Sequence record: NC_047770.1
Direction: 5' to 3' (one strand)
From: Escherichia phage ESCO13
DNA length: 64,000 bases
Position numbers and translations under genes: made by a program. Below the pieces are notes generated by a model. The model saw nothing but the letters and a program-made list of their open reading frames with translations, was not told where the DNA came from and made no database searches. This document shows, in pieces, positions 3,833 to 32,623 of this stretch; position 1 is the first letter of the stretch, and each line of letters starts with the position of its first letter.

Positions 3833-4618
3833 ATGTTTAAAGTAGGTTTTGTTTATAATTTCAAATCAGAAGATACCAAAAAGAATTTTGGTAAAGCCAG
3901 TATTCGTAACGCTTTCTTTGTAGGTTGCATTCAAGATAGCAAGTTTAAAGTTTTAGATGTTGATTTTCTAGGTTCTGTGTCAAAGGTGAAAGTATTAGAC
4001 ACAAATAAGATCATCGAAGGTAGTTCTGGGCTTTTCCCTGAAGGTTATAAGCTTGTAAGTTGTATGGATTATACTCGTTTTGAAGAACATACTCCTGAAG
4101 ATTATGAAGATTCTCCTACAGGAGGCTGTGTCTTTGTAGAAGGTGGTGTCTATAAGTTTGCAAGTGAACAAGATCGTAAGCTTTTCGCCAATTATATTGA
4201 CGGCGGACAAACGACAAACAATGTAAACCGAAAAATTTCCGATCTTATTGGCGATGATCCTTTCGTGATCACAAAGATGGTTGGACAAGATGTAACAGCA
4301 ATCCGTAGGCTTGTATGTAATACAAATCATGTAGCAGGTGAAGGTTGGTTCAAAGAAGCTTGTGCACTGCTAATCAAAAGCGATAACCCTTACTTTAAAA
4401 ATATTAAAGATGCTGTTGAGCCTAAACAAGAGGAACCCGCAGTGAATTTTAAACACTATGCTATTGTTAAAGGTATGAATGTCCAACTGGTGTCACATTC
4501 TTACGAAGAGATCGCCACAGAAGCAAAAAAGATGAAAGAAGAATACCCAATTTCTACTGTTGAGATCTATGAGCGTATTGGTGTTGTTAGTATTGAGCCT
4601 ACTGCGGTAATAAAATAA
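3833..4618 (+). CDS. hypothetical protein, paralog family B
   Basis: SD aaggag; N-terminus MFKVGFVYNFKSED. Confidence 0.55.
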   Translation: MFKVGFVYNFKSEDTKKNFGKASIRNAFFVGCIQDSKFKVLDVDFLGSVSKVKVLDTNKIIEGSSGLFPEGYKLVSCMDYTRFEEHTPEDYEDSPTGGCVFVEGGVYKFASEQDRKLFANYIDGGQTTNNVNRKISDLIGDDPFVITKMVGQDVTAIRRLVCNTNHVAGEGWFKEACALLIKSDNPYFKNIKDAVEPKQEEPAVNFKHYAIVKGMNVQLVSHSYEEIATEAKKMKEEYPISTVEIYERIGVVSIEPTAVIK

Positions 4619-4627
4619 GGAGCTATT

Positions 4628-5065
4628 ATGTTCAAAGCTAATGCTGTTTACTGTTTCAAAAGCAAAGCTGCATGTGAAGCTTTCTCTATGATCTCTGATG
4701 AAAATTTCAAAATGGCAGCTTTGATTGACGGATCTTGTTTCCGCGTCGAAGCTGTTAGTGAATCAGGATCTGTTTGCTCGTTGACTTTATTGGACAGCGG
4801 AGATATTATTGAAGCTGGACAGTATCCGTTCAGAAGTTGGGAGATATTGTTAGCTCGCGGAGAGCGTAACTTTTTTATGTGCGTGTCTGCGGGGGAAGTT
4901 GTGAAAGAAACTAAGGATGTTTCTGTTTACAATTCTGAATTTATAAGTTATAGTGAGTATCAATATCTGGAAGGCATTGTTGGTCACTTGTTATCTCTGA
5001 TTGATACTGAATGTGACTTGCCTGAATCATTGAAAGAAGAGTTGAAAGCATTAGATCTGTTATAA
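4628..5065 (+). CDS. hypothetical protein, paralog family B
   Basis: SD aaggag; N-terminus MFKANAVYCFKSK. Confidence 0.55.
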   Translation: MFKANAVYCFKSKAACEAFSMISDENFKMAALIDGSCFRVEAVSESGSVCSLTLLDSGDIIEAGQYPFRSWEILLARGERNFFMCVSAGEVVKETKDVSVYNSEFISYSEYQYLEGIVGHLLSLIDTECDLPESLKEELKALDLL

Positions 5066-5092
5066 TGTTTCGCACAACGAAAGGAGAATAAG

Positions 5093-5392
5093 ATGAATCT
5101 GACCGAACAGTTACGCCGTATTGCAAAAGAAGCTTCCTTCAACTTCCCTGTTGAAGAAGTGATCGAGACATGTTTTGCTGAAGCACGAGCGGGAAACTCT
5201 TCAAGAAATTTCACGCCATCTGATTTTGGTTTGGATAATTCCCCTACCCACCCAGGGGAGATCTACAATCAGGTGAAGTGGATGGATGAAGCAGTAGCAA
5301 TTCTTCGTGAGCGTGGGCTTATTGTTTATAAAGAAATGGATCTGAACGGGGCATACGAGTGGATCACTATTGATTGGTCGGAGGTGAAATAA
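5093..5392 (+). CDS. hypothetical protein
   Basis: SD aaggag upstream. Confidence 0.5.
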   Translation: MNLTEQLRRIAKEASFNFPVEEVIETCFAEARAGNSSRNFTPSDFGLDNSPTHPGEIYNQVKWMDEAVAILRERGLIVYKEMDLNGAYEWITIDWSEVK

Positions 5393-5601
5393 TGGTTACT
5401 ATCACATTGACAGTTACACAAGAGCAAGCAGAAGAATTACGTGATGCAGTGGCATACATGGGACGCTCTTATTATATGCCTTATAAATCACAAGATGTTT
5501 TTGCTACAGCCATTGAGAAAGCTTTAAACAAATATCGAGAAACTCATGCCGTTCCTAAAGTATCAGCAGAAGAGTTTGGCACTTGGCACGAAGTTCACTA
5601 A
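5392..5601 (+). CDS. hypothetical protein
   Basis: Start moved to ATG 5392 after SD ggaggtg. Confidence 0.45.
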   Translation: MVTITLTVTQEQAEELRDAVAYMGRSYYMPYKSQDVFATAIEKALNKYRETHAVPKVSAEEFGTWHEVH

Positions 5602-5611
5602 GGAGGTTTCG

Positions 5612-5845
5612 ATGAAAGGTAATAAGATGAAAGTTAATCAAGTGCCGAGTGCATACACTTTGTGGCTTGCGCGAGCGTTACACCAGACGATCAAAGACCC
5701 TAAGAAGCCAATGAAGAGTGGGAAGAAGTTTATGTCTAAGGGCAAAACAACCTTTGGCTTCACTCGTATGTCTGTTAAGATGAAAAGGCTGGGGTATAAG
5801 CCAAACTACGCTCGTTACCCTTCCGAATACAACTGGTTTGATTAA
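5612..5845 (+). CDS. hypothetical basic (Lys-rich) protein
   Basis: Start moved to ATG 5612 after SD aaggagg. Confidence 0.45.
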   Translation: MKGNKMKVNQVPSAYTLWLARALHQTIKDPKKPMKSGKKFMSKGKTTFGFTRMSVKMKRLGYKPNYARYPSEYNWFD

Positions 5846-5860
5846 AGAGGAGAACAAAAC

Positions 5861-6145
5861 ATGAAAACATCTATTCGCGTAAAACATGATCCAAACAGCA
5901 GTTACCCATACGCGGATGTTGAACGTCATGAAGGAGACTATTACACCATAAAACGTAAAGTCCCAACTGATACAGGGTTTAACTTTGATGTTATTGCACT
6001 GGATGATCAAGGTGTTGATAATCTGGTGAATGCATTACTCGCATTGAAGGAAGTACGATATGAAAATCAGACTAAAGGTAAAGTGGCTTTCGATTCTTGT
6101 GATCGTTTAGCCGAAGAGATTGCCGAATGGCGTGATACTCACTAA
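5861..6145 (+). CDS. hypothetical protein
   Basis: SD agaggag upstream. Confidence 0.5.
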   Translation: MKTSIRVKHDPNSSYPYADVERHEGDYYTIKRKVPTDTGFNFDVIALDDQGVDNLVNALLALKEVRYENQTKGKVAFDSCDRLAEEIAEWRDTH

Positions 6146-30065: not shown

Positions 30066-30093
30066 ATGTTTAAGAAATGCCCCCGAAGGGGCA
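30066..30093 (-). terminator. minus-strand hairpin with U-rich tail
   Basis: ugcccc-uucg-ggggca on minus RNA, then uuucuu. Confidence 0.4.
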
Positions 30094-30098
30094 GTTTG

Positions 30099-30791
30099 TT
30101 AAATAGCGGTTCCTTCGAAATCCGCCACATTTACGAGATTAATATTTTCAGATTTAGAAGTCAAGTTGTTTTCTGCAACAGATTTTTCTTCAGTATCCGC
30201 CTCGTTACCTGCCACGTTACGAGGTTCTTCTTCACCGTAGGGATTACCGAATTTCAAAAGATTGATCAATTCTTCTTTGGAGAAGTTTTCTAAATCATCA
30301 TCTGTTAATTCAATAATCTCGTCTTGTTCTTCAATAAATGTTTCACCACCAGAAAAAGCATCTCGCTTTTTAGCTACTTCCATAGCCTGTTCTGGTGTTG
30401 CCCCTGCATCAAGAGCAGCTAAAGCAAAGTCTGACCCGCTTCCTACCGCATAATATTCTTCATCAATCGGATATGCACGTGTTGGGTTATTACCTTCGTG
30501 CAGGAAAATACGTCCGTCTGGATGAACAACAAGTGCAATAAACTCTTCATCTTCTTTATCTGGATCAGAGTGAATCATCAAACCAGGGACAGCATCACGT
30601 GCTGCTTCGCACTGTAGATTTTGTTCAAACCATTGAAAGAAAGAAAGCACGGAGGTCAGACGACCAGCACCACCTACAAGGTAATCTCCAATTTTTCGGA
30701 CCTTTTTGAAATTAATAGAATCTACACGTCCACCAAAAGTTACCTTACCGTCACTCAAAATCTTATTTTTGGTTGCAATAATTGTCGTCAC
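30099..30791 (-). CDS. HslV (ClpQ)/proteasome beta-subunit-like Ntn peptidase with acidic C-terminal extension
   Basis: MTTIIATK (Thr2 nucleophile); KKVRK; GGAG; GSGSDFALAA; resembles E. coli HslV (from memory); SD gaggagg. Confidence 0.65.
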   Translation of the reverse strand: MTTIIATKNKILSDGKVTFGGRVDSINFKKVRKIGDYLVGGAGRLTSVLSFFQWFEQNLQCEAARDAVPGLMIHSDPDKEDEEFIALVVHPDGRIFLHEGNNPTRAYPIDEEYYAVGSGSDFALAALDAGATPEQAMEVAKKRDAFSGGETFIEEQDEIIELTDDDLENFSKEELINLLKFGNPYGEEEPRNVAGNEADTEEKSVAENNLTSKSENINLVNVADFEGTAI

Positions 30792-31294
30792 TATTCTTCC
30801 TCCTCTGTTAATGTTTTAAGAACCGCTTTCCCGCCATTCACATATTTGCAGATGTATTCTATCGCACGTAGTGTCTCTTTGTCAACAAAAATTTGATCAG
30901 ACGTTGCGAGCGGGTTATTAAGAAGATCACTACAATCACGAACAAGCAGTGCTTTCTTATTAAACAAATTACTTAAGAACAGTAACTTCGCCTCTTCTTC
31001 TGTTATGTGCAGAAGGCTGGGATCGGAGCCAGCTATTCCTATTATACAATCAAACAAGCTTTCTTTACTATCAGAAAGTTCTTGAAAATGGTTTAAAAGC
31101 CAATCTTCTCCTAGACACCAACATTTAAACATTTCCAGTTTATCTCGGAGGGTCATATTCTCTAAAGTAAGAGCAATCTCTTTTTCAATATGGTTTACAC
31201 AAATTTGACGAAATTCGTTAGGTTTTACGAGTCCCGTTTGATAGCACTCATCTATACCGCTTCTTCCGATAGCTATTGTTGCTACACCCATCAA
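30791..31294 (-). CDS. hypothetical protein
   Basis: SD aaggagg upstream. Confidence 0.45.
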   Translation of the reverse strand: MMGVATIAIGRSGIDECYQTGLVKPNEFRQICVNHIEKEIALTLENMTLRDKLEMFKCWCLGEDWLLNHFQELSDSKESLFDCIIGIAGSDPSLLHITEEEAKLLFLSNLFNKKALLVRDCSDLLNNPLATSDQIFVDKETLRAIEYICKYVNGGKAVLKTLTEEEE

Positions 31295-31326
31295 TCCTCC
31301 TTATAAATGGCTTCCCTGCCACATTA

Positions 31327-32085
31327 TTAAATAAACACTTCAGTAATCAGTTTAGACAAACGTCCACGTTTATTATCGTCCGTTGTCAGTTCAACGTATC
31401 CAATAAAATCTACAATTGGCTCACGAACACCTTCTTCATTTTCTGGATATAAAAGTTCCAAAATTTGATGCAGACCATTGCTACGTTTTTTAATTGCATA
31501 TGTCTGGCGAACATCGCCTAATACAATAACATGCGTATTAATACCTGCACGTTCAATAAGAAGTTTAAGTGTTTCTGTTGACATAAGTTGTGCTTCGTCA
31601 ATAATGACGATTGTATTATCCAGGGTAGCCCCCAACAAATAGTTAGGAATATTCAATTCGATCTTACCTGATCCAATATCGTTTTCCAATTTGTTGGCGG
31701 TCATGAATTGCTGGAAAATACGTTTTGTAGATTCATAGTGTGCTGCTAGTTTATCTGTTTTATCCCCAGACAAGAAACCAATCTGGTCATCTCCGACTTC
31801 AGTAGGGTTCTTGATAAAAAGTAGTTTACGGAAGTCTCCTGAACGAAGCATCTGCAAAGCTTTCCATAAAGCAACAGAGGTTTTACCAGTCCCTGCCGGA
31901 GCATTTACAACAGTCAGATCATTCCAGATCATGCTTTGAACAATCTTATTTTGGTCCCCTTCAGGCATAAATTCATCTAAACGGTAATCGTCATTACCTA
32001 CCGCTTTTGCTGCATAACGGCTTTCAATCTTTGCTGAATTAGCCAGTTTCTGCCGTTGTGTTTTAGCTGCGGTTTTATTTCCCAT
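31327..32085 (-). CDS. phoH: PhoH-like ATPase
   Basis: Walker A NAPAGTGKTSVAL; Walker B-like IVIIDEAQ; start moved to ATG 32085 after SD aaggag, which places the GGGGCCGAAGCCCC hairpin in the intergenic gap. Confidence 0.75.
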   Translation of the reverse strand: MGNKTAAKTQRQKLANSAKIESRYAAKAVGNDDYRLDEFMPEGDQNKIVQSMIWNDLTVVNAPAGTGKTSVALWKALQMLRSGDFRKLLFIKNPTEVGDDQIGFLSGDKTDKLAAHYESTKRIFQQFMTANKLENDIGSGKIELNIPNYLLGATLDNTIVIIDEAQLMSTETLKLLIERAGINTHVIVLGDVRQTYAIKKRSNGLHQILELLYPENEEGVREPIVDFIGYVELTTDDNKRGRLSKLITEVFI

Positions 32086-32102
32086 AGTAGCACTCCTTTT
32101 AG

Positions 32103-32120
32103 AAGGGGCCGAAGCCCCTT
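32103..32120 (-). promoter_or_regulatory. intergenic hairpin AAGGGGCCGAAGCCCCTT (copy 2 of 3)
   Basis: Identical 18-mer between lysozyme stop and phoH SD. Confidence 0.45.
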
Positions 32121-32122
32121 TA

Positions 32123-32623
32123 TTAGTTGTAAGCATCTAAAGTTCCAGAAGTCAGAACTTTAATTACTCGTTCAGCACGGTTTGGCGTCTGGCTATACCA
32201 TCGGCTTTTACGCATGTTTTTACCTGCTTGAGTATAATATGCATTGCTGATTAAAGTCAAGCTATTTTGAAACCCTTCAGCACCTTTTAACCCCAACTGG
32301 AAAACCATGTTGATTATTCCCAATTTACGAGTATCACTCACCTTATCATAGATTGGTGATAAGATAGCACTGTTTTTTATGTCTCTCTTCACTTTTGCAA
32401 CATCGTCAGCAAAGATTTGACGGGCTTCTTTTTCTGTGATAACTCCATTAGTCTTACGACCAAGAAGATTATCTAAGATTTGAATAGCCTTTGCTTTATC
32501 TTTTATTTTAGTCAGAAGGTGTCCTATGCCGACTGTCCAATAACCAAGATGATCTTGGTAAACAGTAAGCTTCAGTCCTTCATCGACTCGTAGCATATCA
32601 AACTCATCTACTACTTTAGCCAT
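32123..32623 (-). CDS. T4-type lysozyme (endolysin)
   Basis: EGLKLTVYQDHLGYWTVGIGHLL resembles the T4 lysozyme catalytic region; SD aggaag. Confidence 0.75.
   Translation of the reverse strand: MAKVVDEFDMLRVDEGLKLTVYQDHLGYWTVGIGHLLTKIKDKAKAIQILDNLLGRKTNGVITEKEARQIFADDVAKVKRDIKNSAILSPIYDKVSDTRKLGIINMVFQLGLKGAEGFQNSLTLISNAYYTQAGKNMRKSRWYSQTPNRAERVIKVLTSGTLDAYN

What the first reader, a model, noticed from the sequence alone, without database searches (positions are those of the whole stretch)
30099..30791. Phage-encoded HslV-like peptidase with no HslU partner in the window
The ORF begins MTTIIATK with the Thr nucleophile directly after Met and has GGAG and GSGSDFALAA motifs that resemble E. 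coli HslV. It carries an acidic C-terminal extension of about 60 aa and no HslU-like ATPase is nearby, so it may use the host ATPase or act in virion maturation.
Basis: partly seen in the sequence, partly recalled or inferred. Interest (0 to 1): 0.55.

Follow-up and report, generated by a model that had tools for sequence, protein, structure and literature searches.

The report
Phage proteasome homolog (PPH-type peptidase)
This E. coli phage gene encodes a small proteasome/HslV-like threonine peptidase of an already described but functionally uncharacterised phage family (PPH); it has no partner ATPase, and its annotation is not new.

Summary
ORF 30099..30791 (minus strand, GTG start, 230 aa) begins MTTIIATK and keeps every catalytic residue of the proteasome-beta/HslV fold. 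The window is a Phapecoctavirus (phAPEC8/ESCO5-like E. coli myophage). The gene is 99.6% identical to RefSeq genes annotated 'peptidase HslV family', and phi92 gp058 is annotated 'putative 20S proteasome'. It is not an HslV orthologue: it scores 31-32 bits against NCBIfam cut-offs of 137-158. [quoted passage not shown] It adds a conserved two-helix module and an acidic disordered tail. Host-HslU use is unlikely because H2 and most named HslU-pocket residues are missing. A virion-maturation role is unlikely for three reasons: the gene sits in the early/middle region; a protease-like gene sits beside the portal gene; and phage VEcB carries a deletion that removes Thr1. The best reading is an accessory N-terminal-threonine peptidase that needs no ATPase, with unknown substrates. 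One new detail is a conserved all-alpha neighbour gene, translationally coupled upstream. Verdict: already known, low-to-moderate interest.

The parts
30099..30791 (-). CDS of the proteasome-homolog peptidase (230 aa, GTG start, TAA stop at 30099-30101). Equivalent to ESCO5 gp077, phAPEC8 'peptidase HslV family' and phi92 gp058.
30327..30791 (-). Catalytic Ntn core, aa 1-155. Contains Thr2 (the nucleophile after Met removal), D14, K30, G40-G43, S118, and D144/S147 in RDAFSGG. Helix H1 spans aa 45-67. An acidic loop at 68-83 replaces helix H2.
30786..30788 (-). Codon of Thr2, the predicted N-terminal nucleophile. There is no propeptide.
   Evidence: 198 of 233 collected family members start MTT
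30237..30326 (-). Conserved C-terminal two-helix module, aa 156-185. Family consensus: [LF]EExxEL[TS][RK]E[DE][LA]xx[ML][ST]KEEL[LI]xL[LI]F[GP].
   Evidence: AF2 helices 164-169 and 172-181, pLDDT about 87. Conserved in 68 long-form representatives clustered at 50% identity.
30102..30236 (-). Acidic, poorly conserved, predicted disordered tail, aa 186-230 (net charge -8).
30799..30804 (-). Shine-Dalgarno AGGAGG, 7 nt before the GTG start. Conserved in phi92.
30078..30093 (-). GC-rich hairpin plus T-rich tail, 6 nt after the stop codon (terminator-like). phi92 has a hairpin of different sequence at the same place.
30791..31294 (-). Upstream gene 'X' (167 aa, phrog_14834). It is all-alpha with no known fold match. 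Its stop overlaps the peptidase start, so it is a candidate partner, regulator or substrate.
31327..32136 (-). PhoH-like P-loop NTPase, the first gene of the conserved order PhoH - X - peptidase.

Best explanation
[quoted passage not shown] Shown: translation starts at a GTG coupled to the stop of the upstream gene, and the product begins Met-Thr-Thr with no propeptide. All residues of the proteasome-type active site are present: Thr1, Asp17, Lys33, the oxyanion-loop glycines, Ser129 and the RDxxSGG Asp166/Ser169 motif. The predicted fold is the HslV/20S-beta sandwich minus helix H2. Inferred: host methionine aminopeptidase removes Met1 and exposes the Thr alpha-amine. The protein then acts as an N-terminal-threonine peptidase. 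By analogy with HslV and BPH it probably forms a ring-shaped homo-oligomer with internal active sites, cleaving unfolded or disordered polypeptides. It would not need a dedicated unfoldase. It lacks the H2 part of the HslU-docking pocket, and where HslV has its pore motif it carries an acidic loop, as the unfoldase-independent BPH does. The conserved two-helix module and acidic tail probably project from the particle and recruit substrates or partners, or regulate access. It is an accessory function of the early/middle gene region, dispensable in the laboratory. It is plausibly used for host takeover or protein turnover. Its substrates are unknown.
For: Family and fold. Catalytic residues invariant. 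The beta5 alignments run through the RDxxSGG region (query 112-159 aligned to beta5 124-182). H2 absent: the AF2 loop at 68-83 agrees with the published statement that PPH/RPC lack H2. Continuous sequence link to ~140-aa PPH-sized proteins: 2334 clusters at E<=1e-3, with short forms at 1e-10 to 1e-14. No ATPase partner. The only classic AAA protein of the genome (ESCO5 gp153) has a phage distribution unrelated to that of the peptidase (against 8). The published survey also found no co-occurring AAA+. HslU pocket residues are not conserved. Accessory and early context holds in six phage lineages. Dispensability: the VEcB deletion.
Against: No biochemical data exist for any PPH. Oligomeric state, activity and substrates are inferred only. 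Loss of H2 could prevent ring assembly, and Fuchs et al. warn that some homologs may have unprecedented quaternary structures. All hosts of phages that carry it possess HslU, so host-HslU use cannot be excluded on distribution. The monomer AF2 model says nothing about assembly, and I could not inspect where the C-terminal helices pack. The VEcB deletion could be an assembly error or could be tolerated only on laboratory hosts.
Confidence: 0.55

Rival explanations
1. The phage peptidase docks onto host HslU (ClpY). This would form a hybrid ATP-dependent protease that redirects the host unfoldase to phage-chosen substrates, or titrates HslU away from host HslV.
For: Its closest solved relatives are HslVs. 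Arg35, Glu61 and Phe57 equivalents are retained. No phage ATPase is available. All known hosts are Proteobacteria that have HslU.
Against: Helix H2, which carries pocket residues Ala79/Lys80, is absent. F54->L and Q114->P, and Lys28->Ser (the role of Lys28 is from my memory of Sousa et al. 2000). The HslV pore residue L88 aligns with a nearly invariant Asp. It scores far below the HslV equivalog cut-offs. The published survey found no AAA+ link.
Confidence: 0.15
2. It is the prohead or virion maturation protease.
For: The RefSeq annotation of ESCO5 names no prohead protease. It is one of only two protease-like genes I found in the genome.
Against: The gene lies about 33 kb from the head module, on the opposite strand, among nucleotide-metabolism genes. 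ESCO5 gp256, between the portal and scaffold genes, matches head-maturation-protease PHROGs (3e-12). In other phages the homolog is never in a head module. VEcB lacks the catalytic N-terminus. No known prohead protease family matches.
Confidence: 0.04
3. It is not a degradative protease. Instead it is a monomeric or low-order, sequence-specific Ntn enzyme (processing peptidase, transpeptidase/ligase like connectase, or amidase). It would act on one phage or host target, possibly the product of the coupled upstream gene X.
For: Loss of H2 may disfavour ring stacking. There is precedent in connectase, a monomeric ligase in the same superfamily. Gene X is tightly coupled and conserved upstream. 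The variable C-terminal domains look like targeting modules.
Against: The active-site constellation is that of the degradative proteasome beta subunits, including RDxxSGG. There is no connectase-like S3/S4 insertion in the model. Short ~140-aa forms have no targeting domain at all.
Confidence: 0.15
4. It is a catalytically irrelevant decoy or poison subunit that co-assembles with host HslV, or blocks it, to shut down host HslVU proteolysis.
For: It shares the HslV-like fold and interface helices H3/H4.
Against: Strict conservation of the whole catalytic set across more than 200 diverse sequences argues for selection on catalysis. It is only about 27% identical to E. coli HslV.
Confidence: 0.04

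Closest known systems
[quoted passage not shown]
   Same: Proteasome-like beta-sheet core with Thr1/Asp17/Lys33 and the oxyanion Gly. No propeptide. Helix H2 missing. Encoded by tailed phages. No co-occurring AAA+ ATPase. Function unknown (compared).
   Different: PPH is described as about 140 aa, whereas this protein is 230 aa. It adds a conserved two-helix module and an acidic tail, so it resembles the 'with C-terminal extension' description of RPC. However, RPC is listed only for Proteobacteria, not phages. My scan of reference bacterial genomes found only a 425-bp contaminant contig. I could not compare it directly with the reference sequences WP_042125023.1 (PPH) and WP_140207863 (RPC).
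Bacterial HslV (ClpQ), the peptidase of the HslVU protease
   Same: Best sequence and fold matches. Met-Thr-Thr N-terminus without a propeptide. Same Thr1/Asp17/Lys33/Ser124-Gly motifs.
   Different: Far below the equivalog cut-offs. About 20 residues shorter in the core, with H2 absent. HslU pocket residues are not conserved. No adjacent hslU. It has the proteasome-type RDxxSGG motif where E. coli HslV has GDICIYTN. It carries a C-terminal extension.
BPH (bacterial proteasome homolog; PDB 5OVS) and 20S proteasome beta subunits
   Same: Fold matches at E about 1e-9 to 1e-10. Pfam Proteasome scores above its gathering score. Like BPH it has no known unfoldase and an acidic loop after H1 (query 'DPDKEDEE'). 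The RDAFSGG region aligns with beta5.
   Different: BPH and beta subunits keep H2 and are longer. 20S needs alpha subunits and propeptide processing. No second proteasome-like gene is present in the window.
HslU/HslV-like gene pairs of jumbo Erwinia/Salmonella phages
   Same: Phage-encoded members of the same fold (for example Erwinia phage Special G).
   Different: Those phages also encode an HslU-like ATPase. Phapecoctavirus does not.

Membership tests
HslV (ClpQ) orthologue | N-terminal Thr nucleophile directly after Met, with Asp17, Lys33 and the Ser124-Gly motif | tested here: met
   T2, D14, K30 and G117-S118-G119 are invariant and aligned to the E. coli HslV residues.
HslV (ClpQ) orthologue | Scores above the curated equivalog thresholds (NF003964, TIGR03692) | tested here: not met
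   32.2 bits against a cut-off of 137, and 31.4 bits against 157.75.
HslV (ClpQ) orthologue | HslU C-tail docking pocket (helix H2 with Ala79/Lys80; Phe54, Phe57, Gln114) | tested here: not met
   No H2 in the AF2 model or in the published family description. The residues map to L, F, H, S, P; the pocket residues come from PMC6429459. The alignment in the H2 region is unreliable precisely because the element is missing.
HslV (ClpQ) orthologue | Cognate hslU encoded alongside | tested here: not met
   No HslU-like ORF in the window. HslU tblastn hits in phages are jumbo Erwinia/Salmonella phages and bacterial contaminant records, not Phapecoctavirus.
HslV (ClpQ) orthologue | Dodecamer of two hexameric rings | not testable with these tools
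   Only monomer prediction was available.
PPH (Fuchs et al. 2021) | Proteasome-like core with the catalytic triad and oxyanion Gly, and no propeptide | tested here: met
PPH (Fuchs et al. 2021) | Second helix (H2) absent | tested here: met
   The AF2 model shows H1 at 45-67, then coil at 68-83, then a strand at 84-89. Definition taken.
PPH (Fuchs et al. 2021) | Encoded by tailed phages or prophages | tested here: met
   232 phage records in more than 10 host genera. The window is a Phapecoctavirus.
PPH (Fuchs et al. 2021) | Length of about 140 residues | tested here: not met
   230 aa: a core of about 155 aa plus a 75-aa extension. It is linked to ~140-aa forms at E of 1e-10 to 1e-14 and 38-41% identity, so I treat it as a long form or RPC-like variant.
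PPH (Fuchs et al. 2021) | Clusters with the reference PPH sequences (WP_042125023.1) in the authors' CLANS map | not tested
   The reference sequences and cluster file were not retrievable with these tools.
20S proteasome beta subunit | Pfam PF00227 above its gathering score, and the RDxxSGG Asp166/Ser169 motif | tested here: met
   25.6 bits against 22.4. Beta5 alignments cover query 112-159. RDAFSGG lies at aa 143-149. That this motif is typical of beta subunits is from my own knowledge.
20S proteasome beta subunit | Partner alpha subunit and propeptide | tested here: not met
   No second family member in the window. The protein starts Met-Thr.
Prohead (head maturation) protease | Located in the head module, with homology to known prohead protease families | tested here: not met
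   The context is early/middle genes. There are no such Pfam or PHROG hits. A different gene beside the portal has them.

The most novel reading that the evidence does not exclude
The long-form phage proteasome homolog, together with the translationally coupled all-alpha protein X (and perhaps the adjacent PhoH-like NTPase), would form a phage-specific proteolytic module with a new quaternary architecture. It would need no AAA+ unfoldase. It would be targeted by its C-terminal module to particular host proteins, for example defence or stress-response factors, during early infection. That would make it the first functionally defined viral proteasome.
Probability: 0.2. Interest if true: 0.7.

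Novelty: already known. Interest (0 to 1): 0.3.

Why it matters
Proteasome-fold proteins are widespread in phages: 45 BFVD structure clusters and more than 2000 sequence clusters. None has a known function, substrate or oligomeric state. This one sits in a culturable E. coli phage with many sequenced relatives and a natural deletion variant. That makes it a convenient model for asking what a viral proteasome homolog does, and whether it works without an unfoldase. The finding itself adds nothing to existing annotation or to the 2021 family description. The incremental points are the conserved C-terminal module, the conserved upstream partner gene, and explicit evidence against HslU docking and against a capsid-maturation role.

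Tried and rejected
1. A second, divergent proteasome-like subunit upstream, as in Aeromonas phage 2L372D, which has two adjacent paralogs. Rejected for this phage. The 167-aa neighbour has no proteasome hits. Its confident AF2 model is all-alpha with no PDB match.

2. Remote homology between the 167-aa neighbour family and the 153-aa protein at the same position in Vibrio phage qdvp001. hhalign first gave 93% probability. That was my own artefact: alignment A8 wrongly included L013:4497-4958, which belongs to the 167-aa family. With that row removed, probability is 1.5% and E=0.034. The claim is withdrawn.

3. The genome's classic AAA ATPase (ESCO5 gp153, outside the window) as the missing unfoldase. 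Its phage distribution (Enterococcus, Bacillus, Staphylococcus, Lactococcus phages) does not follow that of the peptidase, and it resembles clamp or helicase loaders.

4. A sigma-70-like promoter inside the upstream gene (30885-30856, 11 of 12 matches). It is not conserved in phi92, and promoter-like sites are not enriched over shuffles. I treat it as chance.

5. SAP/HeH identity of the C-terminal modules. Only Rho_N at E=0.058 appeared, in one homolog. This is unproven.

6. Literature searches for functional work on phage HslV/PPH proteins, for phi92 virion proteomics and for Phapecoctavirus transcriptomics found nothing usable. Ramachandran 2002 and Schwarzer 2012 are not held.

7. A PDB search with a 57-aa fragment, meant to display the beta5 alignment, returned nothing.

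8. PADLOC gave no defence-system match.

9. The afdb50 fold library was unavailable.

Full report
**What is there.** The ORF is at exactly the stated coordinates but on the minus strand: 30099..30791, GTG start, 230 aa, beginning MTTIIATKNKILSDGKVTFGG. An AGGAGG Shine-Dalgarno (30799-30804) lies 7 nt upstream. The GTG overlaps the TAG stop of the preceding gene by one base, so the two genes are translationally coupled. A GC-rich hairpin with a T-rich tail follows 6 nt after the stop codon (30078-30093). phi92 has a hairpin of different sequence at the same place.

**Where the window comes from.** The window is 99.5-99.9% identical over 4 kb to Phapecoctavirus genomes (phAPEC8, ESCO5, Schickermooser and others; Stephanstirmvirinae, E. 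coli myophages of about 150 kb). In RefSeq the same gene (99.6% protein identity) is already annotated 'peptidase HslV family'. Its phi92 orthologue, gp058, is annotated 'putative 20S proteasome'.

**Family assignment.** PHROG 1040 'peptidase HslV family' matches at E=1.6e-63 over the whole length. Pfam Proteasome (PF00227) scores 25.6 bits, just above its gathering score of 22.4. The NCBIfam HslV equivalogs reach only 31-32 bits against cut-offs of 137 and 158, so this is not an HslV orthologue.

The best solved relatives are HslVs. T. maritima 1m4y scores E=4.9e-9 with the single sequence and 4.8e-15 with a family profile. 20S beta5 subunits follow at about 3e-10. An AlphaFold2 model built on 47 homologs (mean pLDDT 81; core mostly above 90) matches HslV, archaeal and eukaryotic beta subunits and BPH at Foldseek E of about 1e-10.

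**Active site.** Two family alignments show T2, T3, D14, K30 and G117-S118-G119 as invariant. G41-A42-G43 and D144 are nearly invariant. Against E. coli HslV these map to T1, T2, D17, K33, S124-G125 and the G45-G48 loop. 198 of 233 collected relatives start MTT.

The segment RDAFSGG (aa 143-149) lies in the stretch that aligns with beta5 residues 124-182. From my own knowledge, RDxxSGG is the Asp166/Ser169 motif of proteasome beta subunits; E. coli HslV has GDICIYTN there. Neither is met.

**What differs from HslV.** The core is about 20 residues shorter. After helix H1 (aa 45-67) the model has a low-confidence acidic coil (aa 68-83...DAVPGLMIHSDPDKEDEE) where HslV has helix H2.

[quoted passage not shown] They describe a related group, RPC, as having a C-terminal extension. 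They found no informative gene context and no co-occurring AAA+ ATPase.

An exhaustive HMMER search found 2334 clusters (50% identity) at E<=1e-3. There is a continuous series from long forms (183-350 aa) to about 140-aa forms at 1e-10 to 1e-14. I therefore file the protein as a long-form PPH (RPC-like). One caveat: I could not compare it with the authors' reference sequences.

- Residues 156-185 form two confidently predicted helices (164-169 and 172-181, pLDDT about 87). They are conserved across 68 long-form representatives as [LF]EExxEL[TS][RK]E[DE][LA]xx[ML][ST]KEEL[LI]xL[LI]F[GP], followed by a conserved run of Glu/Asp.
- Residues 186-230 are poorly conserved even among close relatives and predicted disordered.

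Other long forms carry further domains. These include a Cys-rich segment and, often, a terminal motif like LxxxAxxLGVxYAHNIsxEKLxxRL that looks HeH/SAP-like. Pfam support for that is only Rho_N at E=0.058 in one sequence. The window protein lacks it.

**Partner ATPase.** No ORF in the window resembles HslU (best E=3.8), and none is a second proteasome homolog. E. coli HslU searched against 50,697 phage records hits jumbo Erwinia and Salmonella phages plus bacterial-contaminant records, but not the roughly 100 Stephanstirmvirinae genomes. The ESCO5 annotation shows no Clp, Lon or HslU gene. Its one classic AAA protein (gp153, outside the window) resembles clamp or helicase loaders. Its phage distribution is unrelated to that of the peptidase.

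**Could it use host HslU?** PMC6429459 lists the HslV residues that accommodate the HslU C-terminus: Phe54, Phe57 and Gln114, plus Ala79/Lys80, which lie in H2. Here H2 is absent, and the aligned residues are L, F, P and H/S. Lys28 is Ser here; by my recollection of Sousa et al. 2000 it binds the HslU C-terminal carboxylate.

The HslV pore residue Leu88 aligns with a nearly invariant Asp. This recalls the acidic pore loop of BPH, which Fuchs et al. contrast with the HslU-gated HslV.

All phages carrying the gene infect Proteobacteria that have HslU, so distribution cannot exclude the idea. I rate it about 0.15.

**Could it mature virions?** The gene sits in a leftward block with NrdAB, thymidylate synthase, glutaredoxin, lysozyme and PhoH. 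That block is about 33 kb from the head genes and on the opposite strand.

In ESCO5 the 159-aa gene between the portal and scaffold genes (gp256, annotated 'DNA methyltransferase') hits head-maturation-protease PHROGs (3e-12, 3.6e-4) and a 'protease' PHROG. A conventional candidate therefore exists.

In Aeromonas, Vibrio, Caulobacter, Rhizobium and Pseudomonas phages, and in metagenomic contigs, the homolog always lies among small accessory genes and never in a head module.

The isolate VEcB (Justusliebigvirus) has a single ORF that fuses PhoH residues 1-112 to the peptidase from about residue 63. This deletes PhoH's C-terminus, gene X, and Thr1/Asp17/Lys33 of the peptidase. If the assembly is correct, all three genes are dispensable for propagation.

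**Context worth noting.** The order lysozyme - PhoH - X - long-form peptidase recurs in several places:

- Stephanstirmvirinae;
- Vibrio phage qdvp001;
- Aeromonas phage 2L372D, where a second, divergent paralog is inserted;
- two metagenomic contigs whose peptidases are only 45-59% identical to the query.

The order holds even where the lysozyme belongs to a different family (GH19 instead of Phage_lysozyme).

X, the 167-aa product of 30791..31294, is found in 132 phage records and, in every genome examined, directly upstream of the peptidase gene. It has homologs in the two metagenomic contigs: 30% identity at E=4e-28, and hhalign probability 99.7%. Its AF2 model is a confident all-alpha structure (pLDDT 91) with no PDB fold match.

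The 153-aa protein at the same position in Vibrio phages is not demonstrably related. An initial positive result was caused by my own contaminated alignment and vanished on correction.

Because all these phages share overall genome order, the synteny may reflect common descent rather than function. Short PPHs in phiCbK-like, Rhizobium and Pseudomonas phages have no PhoH or X nearby.

**Most likely mechanism.**

- Shown: an intact proteasome-type active site on an HslV-like fold without H2 and without a propeptide, a conserved extra C-terminal module, and no unfoldase gene.
- Inferred: Met1 is removed by host methionine aminopeptidase, since Thr is a permissive second residue (E. coli hslV likewise starts GTG-Thr-Thr). 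The free Thr acts as nucleophile and general base together with Lys30 and Asp14. The protein probably forms rings, by analogy with HslV and BPH, and cleaves unfolded or disordered polypeptides without ATP. The C-terminal module and acidic tail face outward and bind partners or substrates, as Fuchs et al. suggest for C-terminal extensions in general. The role is accessory, in host takeover or protein turnover.

Confidence in family and chemistry is high. Confidence in the ATPase-independent, ring-forming, degradative mode is moderate. Substrates are unknown.

**Novelty and score.** The gene, its annotation and its family are already in the public record, and the absence of an ATPase partner has been published for the family. 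The incremental observations are the conserved two-helix module, the conserved coupled neighbour X, the VEcB deletion, and residue-level arguments against HslU docking. They are useful for designing experiments but do not change the category. Interest 0.3; novelty 'already known'.

Noticed in passing
Escherichia phage VEcB NC_052663.1 21498-22298 (protein P0066); corresponds to window about 30100-32086: A single 267-aa ORF fuses PhoH residues 1-112 in frame to the peptidase from about residue 63. This deletes the rest of PhoH, the 167-aa gene X and the peptidase's catalytic N-terminus. It looks like a natural triple knock-out in a viable isolate, if the assembly is correct.
   Followed up: partly
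ESCO5 NC_047776.2 63543-64022 (L006:13144-13623), outside the window: gp256, annotated 'DNA methyltransferase' and lying between the portal and scaffold genes, also matches head-maturation-protease PHROGs (phrog_3017 at 3e-12, phrog_34096 at 3.6e-4) and a 'protease' PHROG. It is probably the misannotated prohead protease.
   Followed up: partly
window 30791-31294 (-): The 167-aa protein X (phrog_14834) gives a very confident all-alpha AF2 model (pLDDT 91, pTM 0.81) with no PDB fold match (best E=0.19). It has 28 invariant residues, including a KPNEFRQ motif and a VDKETLRAIEY motif.
   Followed up: partly
L003 (Aeromonas phage 2L372D NC_048769.1) 4432-4983 and 5001-5885: Two adjacent proteasome-homolog genes. 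The upstream 183-aa paralog starts MTC and has GCG instead of GSG. This hints at hetero-oligomers or sub-functionalisation.
   Followed up: no
Homologs P0093, P0095, P0101, P0109, P0111, P0121, P0122, P0124; L003:5001-5885; L004:5001-5831: Many long-form relatives end in a conserved motif of about 35 aa (L..hA..LGV.YAHNI..EKL...L.EKV) that resembles HeH/SAP/Rho_N modules. Pfam support is sub-threshold (Rho_N E=0.058). The window protein lacks it.
   Followed up: partly
window 30078-30093 (-) and L008:3655-3675: The hairpin after the peptidase stop codon is kept in phi92 with a different stem sequence (GCCCC/GGGGC in the window, CCCCC/GGGGG in phi92). This suggests a functional terminator or RNA-stability element that ends this transcription unit.
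   Followed up: partly
Phage records MG065650.1, MG065656.1, MG065639.1 ('Campylobacter phage B15, C3, A150'): Records labelled as Campylobacter jejuni phages are 99.9% identical to E. coli Phapecoctavirus or Justusliebigvirus genomes. The host labels are probably wrong, or the records are contaminants.
   Followed up: no
(Erwinia phages Special G, Simmy50 and others; Salmonella SPAsTU): Jumbo phages encode an HslU-like ATPase. At least Erwinia phage Special G also has a proteasome-fold protein. Some phages may therefore carry a complete HslUV-like pair, in contrast to this phage.
   Followed up: no
L012 (JAPMLR010000072.1, Lysobacteraceae bacterium JHOS43, 425-bp contig): A 425-bp contig in a bacterial genome assembly is 100% identical at protein level to residues 68-208 of the window's peptidase. 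It is almost certainly phage contamination of that assembly.
   Followed up: no
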